DNA of 64,000 nt from Candidatus Levyibacteriota bacterium (GCA_027459745.1 DAIDHL010000005.1:646-64645); one strand, 5' to 3'. Positions 47,086-53,078 are shown, counted from the stretch's first letter. The notes: a model not told the origin generated them from the sequence alone. Translations and numbers: made by a program.

Positions 47086-47886
47086 ATGAGAAGATCTGTC
47101 CAAACTTTATATTTTTTCCTTGCAATTTCTATCATCGCTTTGTACACAGTTTTTCCCGTCCATGCCCAGGTAGCTTCGGGCATAGCCACTGATGTGAATA
47201 TTCAATCACCAAATGCACAAACAGCCTTGGCCGGCAGCCAAATACAAAACGGAGATATAGTATCGGCTACTTCCAAAGGATATACCCTAAGTAATGTTGA
47301 AAACGATGGATTTGTATTCGGAGTAATTAATCTCAAGCCTGCTATTGTTTTTACCAACAGCGGTAACAACACAAAATTCCCAGTTGTAACTTATGGCAAA
47401 GTATATGTGCGGGTGACGACTCATAATGGTAATATTGCAGCTAATGACTATATAACTACCTCAACTACACCAGGTGTTGGCCAGAAAGCTATCAAAGACG
47501 GTTTTGTATTAGGTAATGCATTGGAATCCTATTCTTCGCCTGATCATAATAAAGTAGGTCTAATCTTGGTAGAGCTAAATCCCCACTATAATACGTTTAC
47601 CACTACCCAGGAAAATCTATTATCCTCTATTCAACAAGCAGCTTCGGCACCTTTTCTTTCGCCATTAACATCACTGCGTTATTTATTAGCCGTAATCGTT
47701 ACCGCCTTCTCATTTGGTTTTGGTTTTATATACTTTGGTAATATGTCAAGACATGGTATTGATGCTTTAGGCAGAAATCCCCTGGCAGCCAAATATATAC
47801 GTCAAGGTCTTTTTCTTAATATAACCATGGCAGTAGGAATTATTGTCGCCGGATTATTTCTTTCCTATTTAATATTGACGTTATGA
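47086..47886 (+). CDS. Secreted-domain protein with C-terminal two-helix hairpin resembling ATP synthase subunit c but lacking the conserved carboxylate
   Basis: 266 aa. Signal peptide, about 170-aa extracytoplasmic domain, then '[49 protein letters not shown]'. This aligns with the c-subunit 'GxGxGxG...SRTIEGIARQPE...' loop, but no D/E occurs in the second helix. 4-bp overlap with the b-subunit gene. Confidence 0.4.
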
Positions 47887-48566
47887 CAATTTTGGTCTAT
47901 TTATTGCTAGCTTTACAAATCTGCCTTTTGTTAGGTTTTACCTGGATGCTGCGAATTCTTTCCAAACTATCAGCCCGTAATACAGAAATGCATAAAGAAC
48001 TCTATTCAGATAATCTAGAGATTATCACCTCCGCACGAAAAGAAGCGGAAAAAATGGTTACTAAAGCTAATAAAAAAGCGTTACAGATTAAAGAAAAGAC
48101 TTCTTTTGATGAAAAAGAATTTGAGCAGTTATTTGACTCAGAGGTACAAAAACTTATCACCCAGCATAGCAAGTCACTAGTTTCCACTACTGGAGCTTTT
48201 ACCAAAGTATATGTCAGTGCGCTAGAGGAATTAAAACAAAACTATATAGGAACATTTCAAGCCACTGCTCAGTCATTTGATAAGCAAGCTGCTAGCTCTT
48301 TGGATGAATTTAAGAAAATGTTGGAGCAAGAAACAATTAATTTACAAGACGAGATCAAAGGTCACGTTCAGAAAGCTTATTCTGAAGCTCTCACTGATAT
48401 AGCAGGATTTAAAAAACAACAGATGCAGCAAATGCAAAATCATGTCAATACTTTAATTTCTTCGATTACAGCTCAGGTACTTAATGAGTCACTTGATACA
48501 CATAAGCAAGAGACTATTATAACCAATGCTCTTAATCAAATGGAGAAATTTTCCGAAAAAAACTGA
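47883..48566 (+). CDS. atpF: F-type ATP synthase peripheral-stalk subunit b-like (N-terminal TM plus long coiled coil)
   Basis: 227 aa. Single N-terminal TM '[17 protein letters not shown]' followed by charged coiled coil. Synteny before delta. Confidence 0.55.
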
Positions 48567-48567
48567 G

Positions 48568-49041
48568 ATGAAAACACTGACTAACTCTTTAACGATCTTA
48601 AATATACGAACAACCACTGAACAACAAGAATGGATTAATATTCTGGAGGATATAATTGAGGATAATAAATCTGAGACAGATTTTAATTTAGAAAAATACA
48701 GTAAAAAAAACCTCACTTTGATTCAGTTCAATTCGCTGGAAGAATATTTAAAAGAATTTAAACCAACTGAGATGATGGAAGAATTACAAAAGTTAAAAGA
48801 TGAACTTACCAAGCTACCGGTGGTAAATATGACTATCGCATTTGATCCAAACAGCAATTTTGTAAATCGAGTAGTAGGAATAGTTCGTGAGAAAGTTGCC
48901 GCACAGGCTGTAATTCACTTAACAATCTCCAAAAATATAATCGGCGGTTTTCTTTTAGATTACCAGGGTAAATTCTATGATGCTAGTTTAATCAACATGA
49001 TTCATAATCTAACAAAGGAGAAAGAACATGCCAGACTTTGA
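48568..49041 (+). CDS. atpH: F-type ATP synthase subunit delta (OSCP)
   Basis: C-terminal 'VVNMTIAFDPNSNFVNRVVGIVREKVAAQAVIHLTISKNIIGGFLLDYQGKFYDASL' matches the delta C-terminal domain ('...DPSLIGG..., G..-DGS'). Start placed at ATG 48568 immediately after the b stop. The ORF-track start at 48526 overlaps b. Confidence 0.7.
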   Translation: MKTLTNSLTILNIRTTTEQQEWINILEDIIEDNKSETDFNLEKYSKKNLTLIQFNSLEEYLKEFKPTEMMEELQKLKDELTKLPVVNMTIAFDPNSNFVNRVVGIVREKVAAQAVIHLTISKNIIGGFLLDYQGKFYDASLINMIHNLTKEKEHARL

Positions 49042-51416: not shown

Positions 51417-51418
51417 TT

Positions 51419-52810
51419 ATGAATACTAAAGGAAAAATAATTAATATTAAAGATCAGATTGTTGAAGTTGAATTCATGGATAGCAATGCACCCAAACTGC
51501 ATGATCTATTGTATTTGGAAGAGGATAAAAACTCTTTACTAGAAGTTACCGGATCCTCAGCTCCCTCTCAGTTTTACTGCATGATTCTCAAAGGAGCTGA
51601 TAATTTTTACCGTGGTGCACCGGTTATAAATAGTGGTTCAGGTCTGACTATTCCCATCGGAAATGAGACTTTGGGCAGAGTCATTGATATCTTTGGCACA
51701 CCTATTGACGGTAAGGCAGAAATTAAAACAAATAACCATCACCCTATCTATAAAGATCCCCCGCCGTTGGAGTCAATTGCACCCAAAACAGGTGTTTTGG
51801 AATTGGGGATTAAGGTTATAGATTTTTTTGCTCCCATGCTGCAAGGTGGCAAATTAGGAATCCTGGGAGGCGCTGGTGTAGGAAAAACTATTTTATTAAC
51901 CGAAATCTTGCACAATGTCGTTATCTTAAACAAAAACAAAAGTGTATCCGTATATACGGGTGTGGGAGAACGTACTAGAGAGGGACAGGAATTGGTGGAA
52001 TCCCTGGCGGAAGGTGATGTCCTAAAGTCGGCTGCACTAATCTATGGAGCAATGGGTGAGAGCCCAGCAATTCGTTATTTAACAGCTTATGCCGGTATAA
52101 CTATGGCTGAAGGTTTTAGAGATGTGGAAAAAAAGGATGTCCTCTTTTTTGTAGATAATGTTTTTCGTTTGGCCCAAGCTGGAAACGAACTATCTATGCT
52201 GGCAAATACCATCCCTTCAGAAGACGGCTATCAGCCGAAATTGGATAGTGAAATGGGTACTTTTCATGAAAGACTAGTATCCACTAAAGATGCAAACATT
52301 AATACTATTGAGGCTATTTATGTCCCCAATGATGATATTACTGACCAGGGAGTACAGGCTATTTTCCCTTATCTTGATTCAATCATTGTATTATCAAGAA
52401 ATGTCTATCAGCAGGGATTTTTGCCAGCTGTAGATATCATGTCCAGCGGTTACTCCAAGGCTTTGACGCCTACAATTGTGGGAGAAAAACATTATTCCGC
52501 AGCGATTGAGGCACAACAATTGCTAAAAAAAGCTGCTTCCTTGGACCGTATCGTCTCCTTAATCGGTGAGTCAGAATTGTCAGCTGATGATCAGGTAACT
52601 TACAGACGAGCACAAAAGTTAAGAGCATATATGACTCAAAGCTTCTTCACAGCCGAAAAGCAAACTGGACGCAAGGGTGTCTTCGTCCCGGCTAAAGATA
52701 CCGTAGATGATGTGATTGGTATCATGCACGGCGCATTTGACGAATTGACCGTAGATAAATTTATGTTTATTGGTAGTTTATCAGAAGTAAAAAAGCCCAA
52801 TGGATCCTAA
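51419..52810 (+). CDS. atpD: F-type ATP synthase F1 subunit beta
   Basis: 'MNTKGKIINIKDQIVEVEF' N-terminus, P-loop 'GGKLGILGGAGVGKTILLTEIL', and a DELSEED-region equivalent. First ATG follows the gamma stop directly. Confidence 0.95.
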   Translation: MNTKGKIINIKDQIVEVEFMDSNAPKLHDLLYLEEDKNSLLEVTGSSAPSQFYCMILKGADNFYRGAPVINSGSGLTIPIGNETLGRVIDIFGTPIDGKAEIKTNNHHPIYKDPPPLESIAPKTGVLELGIKVIDFFAPMLQGGKLGILGGAGVGKTILLTEILHNVVILNKNKSVSVYTGVGERTREGQELVESLAEGDVLKSAALIYGAMGESPAIRYLTAYAGITMAEGFRDVEKKDVLFFVDNVFRLAQAGNELSMLANTIPSEDGYQPKLDSEMGTFHERLVSTKDANINTIEAIYVPNDDITDQGVQAIFPYLDSIIVLSRNVYQQGFLPAVDIMSSGYSKALTPTIVGEKHYSAAIEAQQLLKKAASLDRIVSLIGESELSADDQVTYRRAQKLRAYMTQSFFTAEKQTGRKGVFVPAKDTVDDVIGIMHGAFDELTVDKFMFIGSLSEVKKPNGS

Positions 52811-53078
52811 AGAATATACCGATCAAGTCTATACCGTGACCATTCGCAGTACGGAAACAGTGTATGAGCAGGATTTACCTGTAAGTGCCGTTTCGTCAAA
52901 AAATGTTAACGGTCCTTTTGATGTACTTCCTTTGCATGCCGATTGTATCTCTATTGTGGAAGATTATTTGGCCTATTACCCCCAAAAAGGTGAACGCAAA
53001 TTAATCAATATTCATAAAGGAGTCCTCAGAGTAGAAAACGGCAATGTCTATATCTTCCTAGATACCCTGACAAAATAG
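52800..53078 (+). CDS. atpC: F-type ATP synthase subunit epsilon (beta-sandwich domain only, short)
   Basis: 92 aa. 'GPFDVLPLHADCISIV...GVLRVENGNVYIFLDT' parallels epsilon 'G.LGI.PGHAPL...GG.LEV....V.VLAD'. Confidence 0.65.
   Translation: MDPKEYTDQVYTVTIRSTETVYEQDLPVSAVSSKNVNGPFDVLPLHADCISIVEDYLAYYPQKGERKLINIHKGVLRVENGNVYIFLDTLTK

What the first reader, a model, noticed from the sequence alone, without database searches (positions are those of the whole stretch)
47086..53078. F-type ATP synthase operon lacking subunit a, with a c-subunit-like hairpin that has no proton-binding carboxylate and is fused to a 170-aa extracytoplasmic domain
The operon order is X-b-delta-alpha-gamma-beta-epsilon. 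F1 is clearly intact, with alpha/beta P-loops and delta and epsilon motifs. Upstream of b, where atpB(a) and atpE(c) normally sit, there is only a histidine kinase and ORF X (47086..47886). X ends in a two-helix hairpin with the c-subunit glycine zipper and a '[12 protein letters not shown]' loop resembling 'SRTIEGIARQPE'. Helix 2 ('[22 protein letters not shown]') has no Asp/Glu, and the hairpin is preceded by a signal peptide and an extracytoplasmic domain. Epsilon is also truncated to its beta-sandwich. Either a and c are encoded elsewhere, or this is a non-canonical (possibly non-rotary or ion-uncoupled) Fo.
Basis: partly seen in the sequence, partly recalled or inferred. Interest (0 to 1): 0.65.

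Follow-up and report, generated by a model that had tools for sequence, protein, structure and literature searches.

The report
ATP synthase relative without ion path
A large group of ultra-small (CPR) bacteria carries an "ATP synthase" operon whose membrane half has lost the parts that move protons, so it probably burns ATP to act at the cell surface rather than to make ATP from an ion gradient.

Summary
Window 47086-53078 (+) is a tight seven-gene operon, X-b-delta-alpha-gamma-beta-epsilon, from a Levybacteria-like CPR bacterium.

ORF X has a signal peptide, a 150-aa beta-barrel and a C-terminal two-helix hairpin.
- **Hairpin:** it descends from the F-type c subunit, shown by profile search, fold and gene position. 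It keeps the E-x3-R-N-P loop that docks F1. None of 203 relatives has an Asp or Glu in either membrane helix.
- **Beta-barrel:** it has the fold of phage tail-spike chaperone (Peptidase_G2) and capsid-decoration domains.
- **Subunit a:** no homologue appears in the window or within 10 kb of X in 83 related loci. The rest of each genome could not be checked.

F1 keeps its catalytic motifs, and epsilon lacks its inhibitory C-terminal domain. At least 153 species (Microgenomatia, WWE3) share this layout. In 55 of 77 loci a giant tail-fibre-like protein with the same beta-barrel is encoded divergently next to X.

Best reading: an ion-uncoupled, ATP-hydrolysing F1 docked on an X ring that works at the cell surface. 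Its output is unknown. Kantor et al. noted the odd "c" in 2013 but did not explain it. I rate it a new variant of a known kind.

The parts
47086..47886 (+). ORF X (266 aa): signal peptide + beta-barrel ectodomain + c-subunit-derived hairpin. It is the first gene of the operon.
   Evidence: ORF list; 209 or more homologues; AF2 pLDDT 90; always directly 5' of the F1 genes in 83 loci. Between the window and L004, dN is 0.097 while dS is saturated.
47086..47166 (+). Predicted Sec signal peptide (res 1-27, MRRS...VHA|Q).
   Evidence: Read from the sequence. Small residues at -1/-3 recur across the family alignment. No signal-peptide predictor was available, so cleavage is inferred.
47167..47610 (+). 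Extracytoplasmic beta-barrel domain (res 28-175) with the motif TSSxxPGVGQKA. It has the fold of the phage tail-spike intramolecular-chaperone (Peptidase_G2) and capsid-decoration domains.
47653..47883 (+). c-subunit-like helical hairpin (res 190-266; helices 193-230 and 232-265).
47773..47781 (+). Codons for R230-N231-P232, the cytoplasmic loop equivalent to the c-subunit R-Q/N-P loop that contacts gamma and epsilon.
   Evidence: Invariant in 203/203 hairpins. The acidic residue at R-4 is present in 191/203, as in canonical c.
47833..47835 (+). Codon for Val250, the position (R+20) that aligns with the ion-binding Glu/Asp of canonical c subunits.
   Evidence: Alignment to the Chloroflexus, Spirulina and pea c subunits; translation. 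This column holds I/A/V/L/T/G and never D/E in 203 sequences.
47883..48566 (+). b-like peripheral-stalk protein (227 aa): one N-terminal TM helix followed by a long charged helical region.
   Evidence: Start overlaps the X stop. TIGR01144 E 9e-7, below cut-off; no Pfam or PDB sequence hit. Present in 70 of 78 loci. No conserved charged residue in the TM helix.
48526..49041 (+). delta/OSCP-like subunit (171 aa; start codon uncertain). Only the C-terminal half matches OSCP.
   Evidence: Pfam OSCP 30.8 bits, residues 81-164; family median length 164 aa.
49028..50551 (+). F1 alpha-like subunit (507 aa). The P-loop GDRKTGKT and the Arg-finger motif SVSRVG are conserved. The N-terminal delta-binding helix is shortened.
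   Evidence: Pfam. NCBIfam atpA 379 bits against a cut-off of 484, with residues 11-442 matching profile positions 24-458. Conservation across 77 homologues.
50526..51416 (+). F1 gamma-like subunit (296 aa).
   Evidence: Pfam ATP-synt 66.4 bits; TIGR01146 49 bits against a cut-off of 194.
51401..52810 (+). F1 beta-like catalytic subunit (469 aa, TTG start). GGAGVGKT and GVGERTREG are conserved.
   Evidence: Pfam. TIGR01039 458 bits against a cut-off of 462.85. Conservation across 65 homologues. The closest solved chains are canonical bacterial F1 beta (about 380 bits), against 282 bits for Mycoplasma G1-ATPase beta.
52800..53078 (+). epsilon subunit reduced to the N-terminal beta-sandwich (92 aa). 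The C-terminal inhibitory helices are absent.
   Evidence: Pfam ATP-synt_DE_N, residues 17-89; family median length 90 aa.
58686..63923 (-). Giant tail-fibre-like protein (1745 aa), a homologue of the giant proteins encoded next to X in most related loci. This copy has no N-terminal HTH or TM region.
   Evidence: tblastn with the L001 giant; shared C-terminus ...NWWIIN; jackhmmer.
59445..59846 (-). Domain inside the giant protein (res 1360-1493) that is homologous to the X ectodomain, including the TSSxxPGVxxKA motif.
   Evidence: X-family HMM E 5e-25; BLASTP 36% identity over 102 aa, E 3e-17; translation.

Best explanation
This is a lineage-specific derivative of the F-type ATPase, found in Microgenomatia and WWE3, that no longer couples to an ion gradient.

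Shown:
- The catalytically intact F1 head (alpha3beta3, gamma and a short epsilon without its inhibitory domain) is co-encoded with X.
- X is a c-subunit descendant. It keeps the hairpin fold and the invariant E-x3-R-N-P cytoplasmic loop that canonical c rings use to hold gamma and epsilon.
- X has no carboxylate in either membrane helix.
- No subunit a gene accompanies it.

Inferred:
- X still forms a ring on which gamma and epsilon sit.
- The enzyme runs only as an ATP hydrolase, because it has neither an ion-binding site nor half-channels.
- The torque or conformational work is delivered to the outside of the membrane, where every X subunit carries a beta-barrel of the phage tail-spike-chaperone / decoration type.
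- This crown interacts with the giant tail-spike-like surface protein that carries the same domain and is encoded beside X in most genomes.

The module would then be an ATP-powered cell-surface device for host contact, attachment or envelope work, not a bioenergetic enzyme. b and delta, where present, would hold alpha3beta3 to the membrane.
For: - **c ancestry of X.** A profile of 39 hairpins searched against 177,635 PDB sequences returns F-type c subunits as the 7 best hits. The Chloroflexus c subunit shares the GRNP loop.
- **Specificity.** A canonical-c HMM hits only X proteins among all ORFs of the 83 loci.
- **Ion site lost.** 0 of 203 hairpins has D/E in either membrane helix, RNP is 203/203, and the acidic residue at R-4 is present in 191/203.
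- **No subunit a nearby.** There is no E. coli-a homologue and no conserved polytopic gene next to X in 83 loci or in the window. WWE3 locus L029 has ComM upstream of X.
- **Literature.** Kantor 2013 reports the same oddity in a complete or essentially complete WWE3 genome.
- **F1 intact.** Catalytic motifs are conserved in 65 beta and 77 alpha sequences.
- **Epsilon is short across the family**.
- **Purifying selection.** dN is 0.097 with dS saturated.
- **Wide conservation.** 153 species and 612 clusters at 50% identity.
- **Ectodomain fold.**
- **Same domain in the neighbouring giant protein.**
- **Linkage to the giant gene.** It is divergent from X in 55 of 77 loci.
Against: - Ring formation, F1 docking and rotation are inferred, not shown. 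No multimer prediction was possible.
- Without subunit a, nothing obvious fixes the b helix relative to the ring.
- Eight loci lack b and delta altogether, which is hard to reconcile with a classical stator-rotor motor.
- Whole genomes could not be searched for a distant atpB or atpE.
- One Microgenomates genome in a published table (Curtissbacteria) scores AtpB=1 and AtpE=0. It is not known to carry X.
- The giant neighbour begins with a MerR-type HTH, so the linkage may be regulatory rather than physical.
- In this window the giant homologue is downstream, lacks the HTH and is separated from epsilon by another gene.
- The near-invariant Asn245 in mid-membrane is unexplained.
Confidence: 0.6

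Rival explanations
1. Split canonical ATP synthase. Normal atpB (a) and atpE (c) lie elsewhere in the genome and build an ordinary Fo. X is an accessory or assembly factor that happens to sit before b.
For: Only 64 kb of this genome was visible, and each related locus showed only 10 kb on either side of X. Curtissbacteria in Mahendrarajah's Supplementary Data 4 scores AtpB=1 with AtpE=0. Canonical sets do exist in some Microgenomates, such as Pacebacteria and Woykebacteria.
Against: X itself is the c homologue and keeps the invariant F1-docking loop, which an accessory factor would not need. It occupies the c position in 83 of 83 loci. No a or c was found in any flank. Kantor 2013 found no recognisable a or c in a complete or essentially complete WWE3 genome. 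The F1 subunits all fall below the NCBIfam equivalog cut-offs.
Confidence: 0.08
2. The complex is still an ion pump or synthase using non-canonical chemistry. The X ring would bind H+ or Na+ through polar residues (Asn245, Thr249, Tyr261), and an unrecognised partner, such as the b-like helix or another membrane protein, would provide the access channels.
For: Asn245 (188/203, His in 11) and Thr249 (157/203) are conserved polar residues near mid-membrane on helix 2, next to the former Glu position. CPR cells need some way to energise their membrane.
Against: Every characterised rotor ring uses a carboxylate (established knowledge). There is no conserved charged residue in the b-like TM helix and no conserved polytopic neighbour. 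Asn in TM helices is a well-known helix-packing residue, and Asn245 lies on the conserved i/i+3/i+4 stripe of helix 2.
Confidence: 0.1
3. Membrane-tethered ATPase without mechanical output. After Fo was lost, F1 was kept for another cytoplasmic role, such as ATP or ADP homeostasis or regulation. X would serve only as a static anchor, or its ectodomain would be an intramolecular chaperone cleaved off after assembly.
For: Eight loci lack the stator subunits b and delta. The ectodomain's closest structural relative, the phi29 gp12 C-terminal domain, is an assembly chaperone that is removed after trimerisation (the chaperone role is from established knowledge of gp12). The giant neighbour may simply be a MerR-type regulator.
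Against: The ectodomain is as strongly conserved as the hairpin across a class-level radiation, which is unexpected for a mere anchor. A freely hydrolysing F1 would be costly for organisms with minimal energy budgets. Loss of the epsilon inhibitory domain suggests that hydrolysis is the selected activity.
Confidence: 0.17

Closest known systems
Canonical bacterial F1Fo ATP synthase (atpBEFHAGDC), including the c ring (Pfam ATP-synt_C)
   Same: Same gene order from c onwards (c-b-delta-alpha-gamma-beta-epsilon). F1 catalytic motifs are intact. The beta subunit scores about 380 bits against solved bacterial F1 beta chains. X has the c hairpin fold and the E-x3-R-(Q/N)-P loop.
   Different: There is no subunit a in the operon, and no ion-binding carboxylate in X (0/203). 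The c homologue carries a signal peptide and a 150-aa external beta-barrel. Epsilon lacks its C-terminal domain. The alpha N-terminus and the delta N-terminal half have diverged. Every subunit scores below its NCBIfam equivalog cut-off.
Mycoplasma F1-like X0 ATPases (Type 2 gliding motor 'G1-ATPase' of M. mobile; Type 3 MSC_0618/0619 clusters)
   Same: These are F1-derived alpha/beta/gamma-like ATPases encoded without a normal Fo and used (Type 2) for a surface mechanical function rather than for chemiosmosis. This is the closest analogue in principle.
   Different: The window's alpha and beta score lower against these models than against canonical atpA and atpD, and fall below their cut-offs (glide_MMOB1660 364 vs 600; MSC_0618_beta 374 vs 570). 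They score 282 bits against solved G1 beta. The partners also differ: as far as I know (not checked here), no c-derived hairpin protein has been described for the Mycoplasma clusters.
Kantor et al. 2013 (mBio, PMC3812714): the WWE3 RAAC2 / OP11 'ATP synthase operon with non-homologous a, b, c'
   Same: This is almost certainly the same operon type. [quoted passage not shown] WWE3 loci L029 and L078 carry X.
   Different: That paper left the proteins unassigned and assumed ion pumping. It did not report the c ancestry, the missing carboxylate, the absence of a true subunit a, the phage-like ectodomain or the linked giant protein.
Phage tail-spike intramolecular chaperone / Peptidase_G2 domain (phi29 gp12 C-terminus) and capsid decoration (cement) proteins
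   Different: In X the domain lies N-terminal to a membrane hairpin rather than at the C-terminal end of a fibre or on a capsid. Autocleavage residues were not examined. There were no PHROGs hits.
Flagellar / type III secretion ATPase complex (FliI6-FliJ-FliH)
   Same: It is an F1-like ATPase with a gamma-like shaft and a b/delta-like tether, docked on a membrane ring that does not use the a/c ion path.
   Different: The window's proteins are true alpha/beta heteromers and score far lower against the FliI/SctN models (227 bits or less, against cut-offs of 380 or more). No export-gate genes are present.

Membership tests
Canonical F1Fo ATP synthase | alpha3beta3 catalytic head with P-loops, catalytic Glu and Arg finger | tested here: met
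   Pfam ATP-synt_ab scores 242 and 200 bits. GDRKTGKT, SVSRVG, GGAGVGKT and GVGERTREG are conserved in the family.
Canonical F1Fo ATP synthase | gamma, delta and epsilon subunits | tested here: met
   Pfam ATP-synt 66 bits, OSCP 31 bits and ATP-synt_DE_N 33 bits, all above gathering. Epsilon lacks its C-terminal domain.
Canonical F1Fo ATP synthase | Subunit a (PF00119) with the conserved Arg, adjacent to c | tested here: not met
   phmmer with E. coli a finds no hit (E<10) in the window's 188 ORFs or in the ORFs of 83 loci. There is no conserved polytopic gene next to X. Genome-wide absence could not be tested; it is supported only by Kantor 2013.
Canonical F1Fo ATP synthase | c subunit with a membrane-embedded Asp/Glu that binds the coupling ion | tested here: not met
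   0 of 203 hairpins has D/E in helix 1 (res 196-222) or helix 2 (res 240-266). Val250 occupies the aligned position.
Canonical F1Fo ATP synthase | Scores above the NCBIfam equivalog cut-offs (atpA, atpD, atpG, atpH, atpC, atpF, atpE) | tested here: not met
   Score against cut-off: alpha 379/484, beta 458/463, gamma 49/194, delta 20/57.5, epsilon 33/67, b 29/65.5, X 13/128.
ATP synthase subunit c family (Pfam PF00137) | Two-helix hairpin with a cytoplasmic R-(Q/N)-P loop | tested here: met
ATP synthase subunit c family (Pfam PF00137) | Sequence match at the Pfam gathering threshold | tested here: not met
   The window protein has no Pfam hit, and 1 of 38 relatives hits at E 0.096. Homology is detectable only by profile: E 0.007 against PDB c subunits.
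ATP synthase subunit c family (Pfam PF00137) | Assembly into a homo-oligomeric ring | not testable with these tools
   Only monomer prediction was available. Conserved i/i+3/i+4 stripes on both helices are compatible with ring packing but do not prove it.
Mycoplasma F1-like ATPases (Types 2 and 3) | Match to NCBIfam glide_MMOB1660/1670 or MSC_0618/0619 at cut-off | tested here: not met
   Scores of 364/600, 349/850, 374/570 and 253/520, all lower than the scores against canonical atpA and atpD.
N-ATPase (alternate F1Fo) | Match to TIGR03324 / TIGR03305 / TIGR03166 at cut-off, with a and c present | tested here: not met
   Scores of 381/750, 395/752 and 27/100. No a subunit and no carboxylate-bearing c were found.
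Peptidase_G2 / tail-spike intramolecular chaperone domain | Fold of the phi29 gp12 C-terminal domain | tested here: met
Peptidase_G2 / tail-spike intramolecular chaperone domain | Autocatalytic cleavage site and catalytic residues | not tested
   No residue-level comparison was made. X members show no Pfam PF11962 hit. The homologous domain in the L001 giant scores 35 bits, above the gathering cut-off of 25.

The most novel reading that the evidence does not exclude
The module is a previously unrecognised ATP-driven rotary surface machine. F1 would turn a carboxylate-less c-type ring whose external crown of tail-spike-chaperone domains grips a giant tail-spike-like fibre carrying the same domain. 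Cytoplasmic ATP hydrolysis would then rotate or tension a host-contact appendage in episymbiotic CPR bacteria. In the ancestral arrangement, the giant protein's N-terminal MerR HTH would also make it a contact sensor controlling the divergent ATPase operon.
Probability: 0.2. Interest if true: 0.95.

Novelty: new variant of a known kind. Interest (0 to 1): 0.72.

Why it matters
[quoted passage not shown] For Microgenomatia and WWE3, at least 153 species here, the genes counted as 'ATP synthase' cannot bind or conduct coupling ions by any known mechanism. They therefore give no evidence for chemiosmotic ATP synthesis or for proton-motive-force generation by ATP hydrolysis in these lineages.
- **Rotary ATPase biology.** This is a natural case of a rotary ATPase that kept its F1-ring interface but lost the ion path and gained an external domain on every ring subunit. 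It allows a direct test of what a c ring does when freed from ion translocation.
- **Link to cell-surface structures.** The tight genetic link to a giant tail-spike-like protein, together with the independent report that ATP synthase genes and a tail-fibre-like gene co-localise with the new Pam pilus operon, points to an ATP-powered host-interaction device.

Tried and rejected
- **Direct annotation of X.** Pfam, NCBIfam and PHROGs gave nothing usable.
- **Promoter and terminator scan of 46800-53400.** Counts were no higher than in shuffled sequence, so it was uninformative.
- **RNA genes.** Rfam and tRNA scans found only two tRNAs, far from the operon.
- **AFDB50 fold search.** The library was unavailable.
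- **Hairpin-only profile against the 1.84-billion-protein library.** The full-length profile was used instead.
- **Alpha-like ORF upstream in L029.** I considered it as a possible second F1 set, but by my reading of its sequence it looks like transcription termination factor Rho; no family search was run on it.
- **32-locus small-ORF family from neighbour clustering.** The members lie on the strand opposite the giant gene, which maps to the same upstream region in most of these loci, so I treated them as shadow ORFs of that gene.
- **Histidine kinase (DUF4118) as a disguised subunit a.** Rejected: its domains are PAS-HisKA-HATPase, and it is replaced by other genes in related loci.
- **Mycoplasma-type, N-ATPase and T3SS ATPase membership.** Rejected on NCBIfam scores.
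- **Genome-wide search for atpB and atpE.** This was not possible. The genome collection allows only one scan, and loci are limited to 10-kb flanks.
- **Literature.** Searches found only Kantor 2013 describing the anomaly.

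
Full report
**What is there.** The window is low-GC DNA (about 36%). Its closest relative in the species-representative genome set is a Candidatus Levyibacteriota MAG, with 87% identity for X. Seven overlapping or abutting genes lie on the + strand between 47086 and 53078.
- Pfam places the last five above gathering as delta/OSCP, alpha, gamma, beta and epsilon. 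Epsilon has only the N-terminal domain and is 92 aa long.
- The gene upstream of X is a DUF4118-PAS histidine kinase.
- Every F1 subunit scores best against canonical F-type models but below the curated equivalog cut-offs: beta 458 vs 463, alpha 379 vs 484, gamma 49 vs 194. Scores against the Mycoplasma F1-like, N-ATPase and type III secretion models are lower still.
- Against solved structures, beta is about equally close to several bacterial F1 beta chains (about 380 bits). It is more distant from the Mycoplasma G1-ATPase beta (282 bits).
- The second gene is 'b' only by position, by its single N-terminal TM helix and by a weak TIGR01144 match.

**ORF X.** X has no Pfam family but belongs to a large family.
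- There are 209 or more homologues in the 90%-clustered database.
- There are 612 clusters at 50% identity with E<=1e-30.
- Relatives occur in 153 GTDB species representatives whose titles name Levy-, Shapiro-, Gottesman-, Ames-, Woese- and Roizmanbacteria, Microgenomates and WWE3.
- AlphaFold2 with a 119-sequence alignment gives a confident model (pLDDT 90). It shows an N-terminal hydrophobic helix ending VHA|Q, a beta domain (res 31-169), a short helix and a long hairpin (helices 193-230 and 232-265).
- Positive charges cluster in the inter-helix loop. The topology is therefore N-out, loop-in, C-out, the same as a c subunit, with the beta domain outside the cell.

**The hairpin is a c subunit without its ion site.** Several independent lines agree.
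- A profile of 39 diverse X hairpins was searched against all 177,635 distinct PDB sequences. F-type c subunits are the seven best hits (E 0.007-0.33), aligned over the whole hairpin. Chloroflexus c even shares the GRNP loop.
- hhalign against eight canonical c sequences gives P=6.7e-4 over 69 columns.
- A canonical-c HMM, run over all ORFs of the 83 loci, hits only X proteins.
- In a census of 203 hairpins, R-N-P is invariant and the acidic residue four positions before the Arg is present in 191, as in canonical c.
- In the same census, neither membrane helix contains a single Asp or Glu. The position aligned with the coupling Glu (R+20, Val250 here) is always aliphatic or small.
- The cytoplasmic loop is the part of c that holds gamma and epsilon. 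Its invariance argues that X still docks F1.
Helix 1 is rich in Phe.

**No subunit a.**
- phmmer with E. coli a finds nothing (E<10) in the window's 188 ORFs or in any ORF of the 83 loci with up to 10-kb flanks. No conserved polytopic gene sits next to X.
- X is the gene directly 5' of the F1 genes in every locus, with differing outer neighbours.
- Kantor et al. (2013) described the same situation in a complete or essentially complete WWE3 genome. [quoted passage not shown] They left open whether the enzyme is functional and which ion it pumps.
- Whole genomes could not be searched here. A published COG table shows one Microgenomates genome (Curtissbacteria) with AtpB=1 and AtpE=0. Its b and delta are recognised as well, so it may simply be a canonical operon with an uncalled c gene.
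- The same table lists a Saccharibacteria genome with two copies of alpha, beta, gamma and epsilon but single a, b, c and delta. That pattern is what an X-type operon coexisting with a canonical one would produce. This is unverified.

**The ectodomain.**
- Against predicted viral structures, it matches long, mostly unannotated phage proteins (about 480-1,490 aa) and short ones annotated 'preneck appendage' at E down to 3e-12.
- Family members give weak Pfam Phage_cement and XM1_gp53 hits.

**A linked giant protein.**
- The X-family HMM also hits a domain inside giant proteins encoded beside the operon. In this window it is residues 1360-1493 of the 1745-aa protein at 58686-63923(-): HMM E 5e-25, and 36% identity to the X ectodomain including the TSSxxPGVxxKA motif.
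- These giants share a C-terminus ending NWWIIN.
- tblastn with the N-terminal 520 aa of one of them shows a strong linkage. Of 77 loci with upstream flank, 55 encode a homologue divergently upstream of X. In 25 it is directly adjacent. In another 25 it lies within 1.6 kb, enough for one gene; a Fic/HTH_DeoR family recurs upstream of X in 25 loci.
- Pfam shows their architecture: an N-terminal MerR-type HTH, one TM helix, a right-handed beta-helix and a Peptidase_G2 autoproteolytic chaperone domain, which is the X-like domain.
[quoted passage not shown] It reads this as coupling to ATP production.
- In this window and its close relative L004, two-component genes replace the upstream giant.

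**Variation.**
- Seventy loci have b and delta.
- In seven loci X directly abuts alpha and no b or delta lies within 10 kb; these include Woesebacteria. An eighth (L023, Gottesmanbacteria) also lacks b and delta but has a 435-nt gap between X and alpha.
- One WWE3-labelled locus has X and the giant's N-terminal homologue but no F1 genes.
- Some X proteins carry an extra 200-300-aa N-terminal region.

**Is it functional?**
- Catalytic motifs of alpha and beta are conserved across 77 and 65 homologues.
- Epsilon is short throughout the family (median 90 aa). It therefore lacks the domain that inhibits hydrolysis in bacteria.
- Between the window and L004, X has dN 0.097 while synonymous sites are saturated.
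- These are selected genes, not decaying remnants.

**Mechanism.**

Shown:
- an intact F1;
- a c-derived partner that keeps the docking loop;
- no ion-binding residue in that partner;
- no subunit a nearby;
- an external phage-type beta-barrel on every X copy;
- genetic linkage to a giant tail-spike-like protein carrying the same domain.

Inferred:
- X forms a ring bearing gamma and epsilon;
- the enzyme works only as an ATP hydrolase, uncoupled from ions;
- its work is delivered to the external crown and, through it, to the giant fibre or another surface structure.

Weak points:
- there is no obvious stator anchor without subunit a;
- some lineages lack b and delta;
- the giant protein's MerR domain means the linkage could be regulatory rather than physical.

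Rival readings and my rough weights are a split canonical operon (0.08), non-canonical ion chemistry via Asn245 and Thr249 (0.10), and a tethered ATPase with no mechanical output or with a cleaved chaperone domain (0.17).

**Comparison and novelty.**
- The module works most like the Mycoplasma F1-like ATPases, where F1 has been repurposed for surface mechanics. It is not a member of those families.
- It descends from the canonical F-type enzyme but fails two defining features: subunit a and the c carboxylate.
- The anomaly was noted in one paragraph in 2013, and I found no later analysis.
- I rate it a new variant of a known kind, of high interest to rotary-ATPase and CPR specialists.

Noticed in passing
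L001:2661-8765(-); homologues in 59 of 83 loci; window 58686-63923(-): A family of giant (700-2200 aa) proteins with an N-terminal MerR/HTH_17 domain, one TM helix, a beta-helix, a Peptidase_G2 chaperone domain and a conserved ...NWWIIN C-terminus. In 55 of 77 loci one is encoded divergently upstream of X. This looks like a membrane-tethered transcription factor fused to a tail-spike. The window copy lacks the HTH and TM part.
   Followed up: partly
L001:9021-9974(+), L009:3040-3975(+) and about 23 other loci: A 311-319-aa Fic + HTH_DeoR protein recurs upstream of X in 25 loci; in L001 it lies between the giant gene and X. It is absent from this window.
   Followed up: partly
L005, L023, L024, L035, L037, L047, L053, L075: In these eight loci the operon is X-alpha-gamma-beta-epsilon, with no b or delta within 10 kb. 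In seven of them X directly abuts alpha; L023 has a 435-nt gap. A peripheral stalk seems dispensable, or is encoded elsewhere, in some Woesebacteria- and Gottesmanbacteria-labelled genomes.
   Followed up: partly
L078:2656-3678(+): On a 536-kb WWE3-labelled contig, an X homologue with a homologue of the giant's N-terminal region upstream has no F1 genes in the 10 kb downstream.
   Followed up: no
L082:6491-7276(-): A second, divergent full-length X copy lies on the opposite strand directly after gamma in a Roizmanbacteria contig. Beta and epsilon were not found there.
   Followed up: no
L063:9317-10621, L074:1513-3087; P0239, P0242, P0246, P0248, P0251, P0254, P0256: X variants of 430-540 aa carry an extra 200-300-aa region N-terminal to the usual ectodomain.
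   Followed up: no
window 53173-58644 (-): An 1823-aa protein with seven Laminin_G_3 (concanavalin-like) repeats, DUF2341 and one N-terminal TM helix sits between epsilon and the tail-fibre-like giant.
   Followed up: no
window 49028-50551 (+): The alpha subunit has only about 10 residues where canonical alpha has the ~25-residue N-terminal helix that binds delta (residues 11-442 match TIGR00962 positions 24-458). The N-terminal half of delta does not match OSCP. The stalk-head contact has probably been remodelled.
   Followed up: partly
window 42697-46998 (+): A response-regulator-like ORF (my reading of the translation; it was not scanned), a sensor-kinase-like ORF (also not scanned), an alpha/beta-hydrolase and a second DUF4118-PAS histidine kinase lie directly upstream of X. 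This is where most relatives have the MerR-giant gene, so the regulatory input may have been swapped.
   Followed up: no
L041:10694-12415(+): A 573-aa ORF that looks, from its translation, like a cofactor-independent phosphoglycerate mutase (not scanned) is inserted between X and b in one locus.
   Followed up: no
window 1221-9977 (-), 40034-41371 (+): Several large polytopic envelope proteins occur here: a Polysacc_synt_3 flippase, a PTPS_related protein and three PMT_2 glycosyltransferases. A GT2 enzyme, a GH18 protein with CBM5/12 and a GLUG-LysM protein lie elsewhere in the window. The region is rich in cell-envelope functions.
   Followed up: no
Mahendrarajah et al. 2023, Supplementary Data 4 (not the window): A Saccharibacteria genome (RIFCSPHIGHO2_12_FULL_41_12) is listed with two copies of AtpA, AtpD, AtpG and AtpC but single a, b, c and delta. 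This may be a canonical operon plus an X-type operon in one genome.
   Followed up: no
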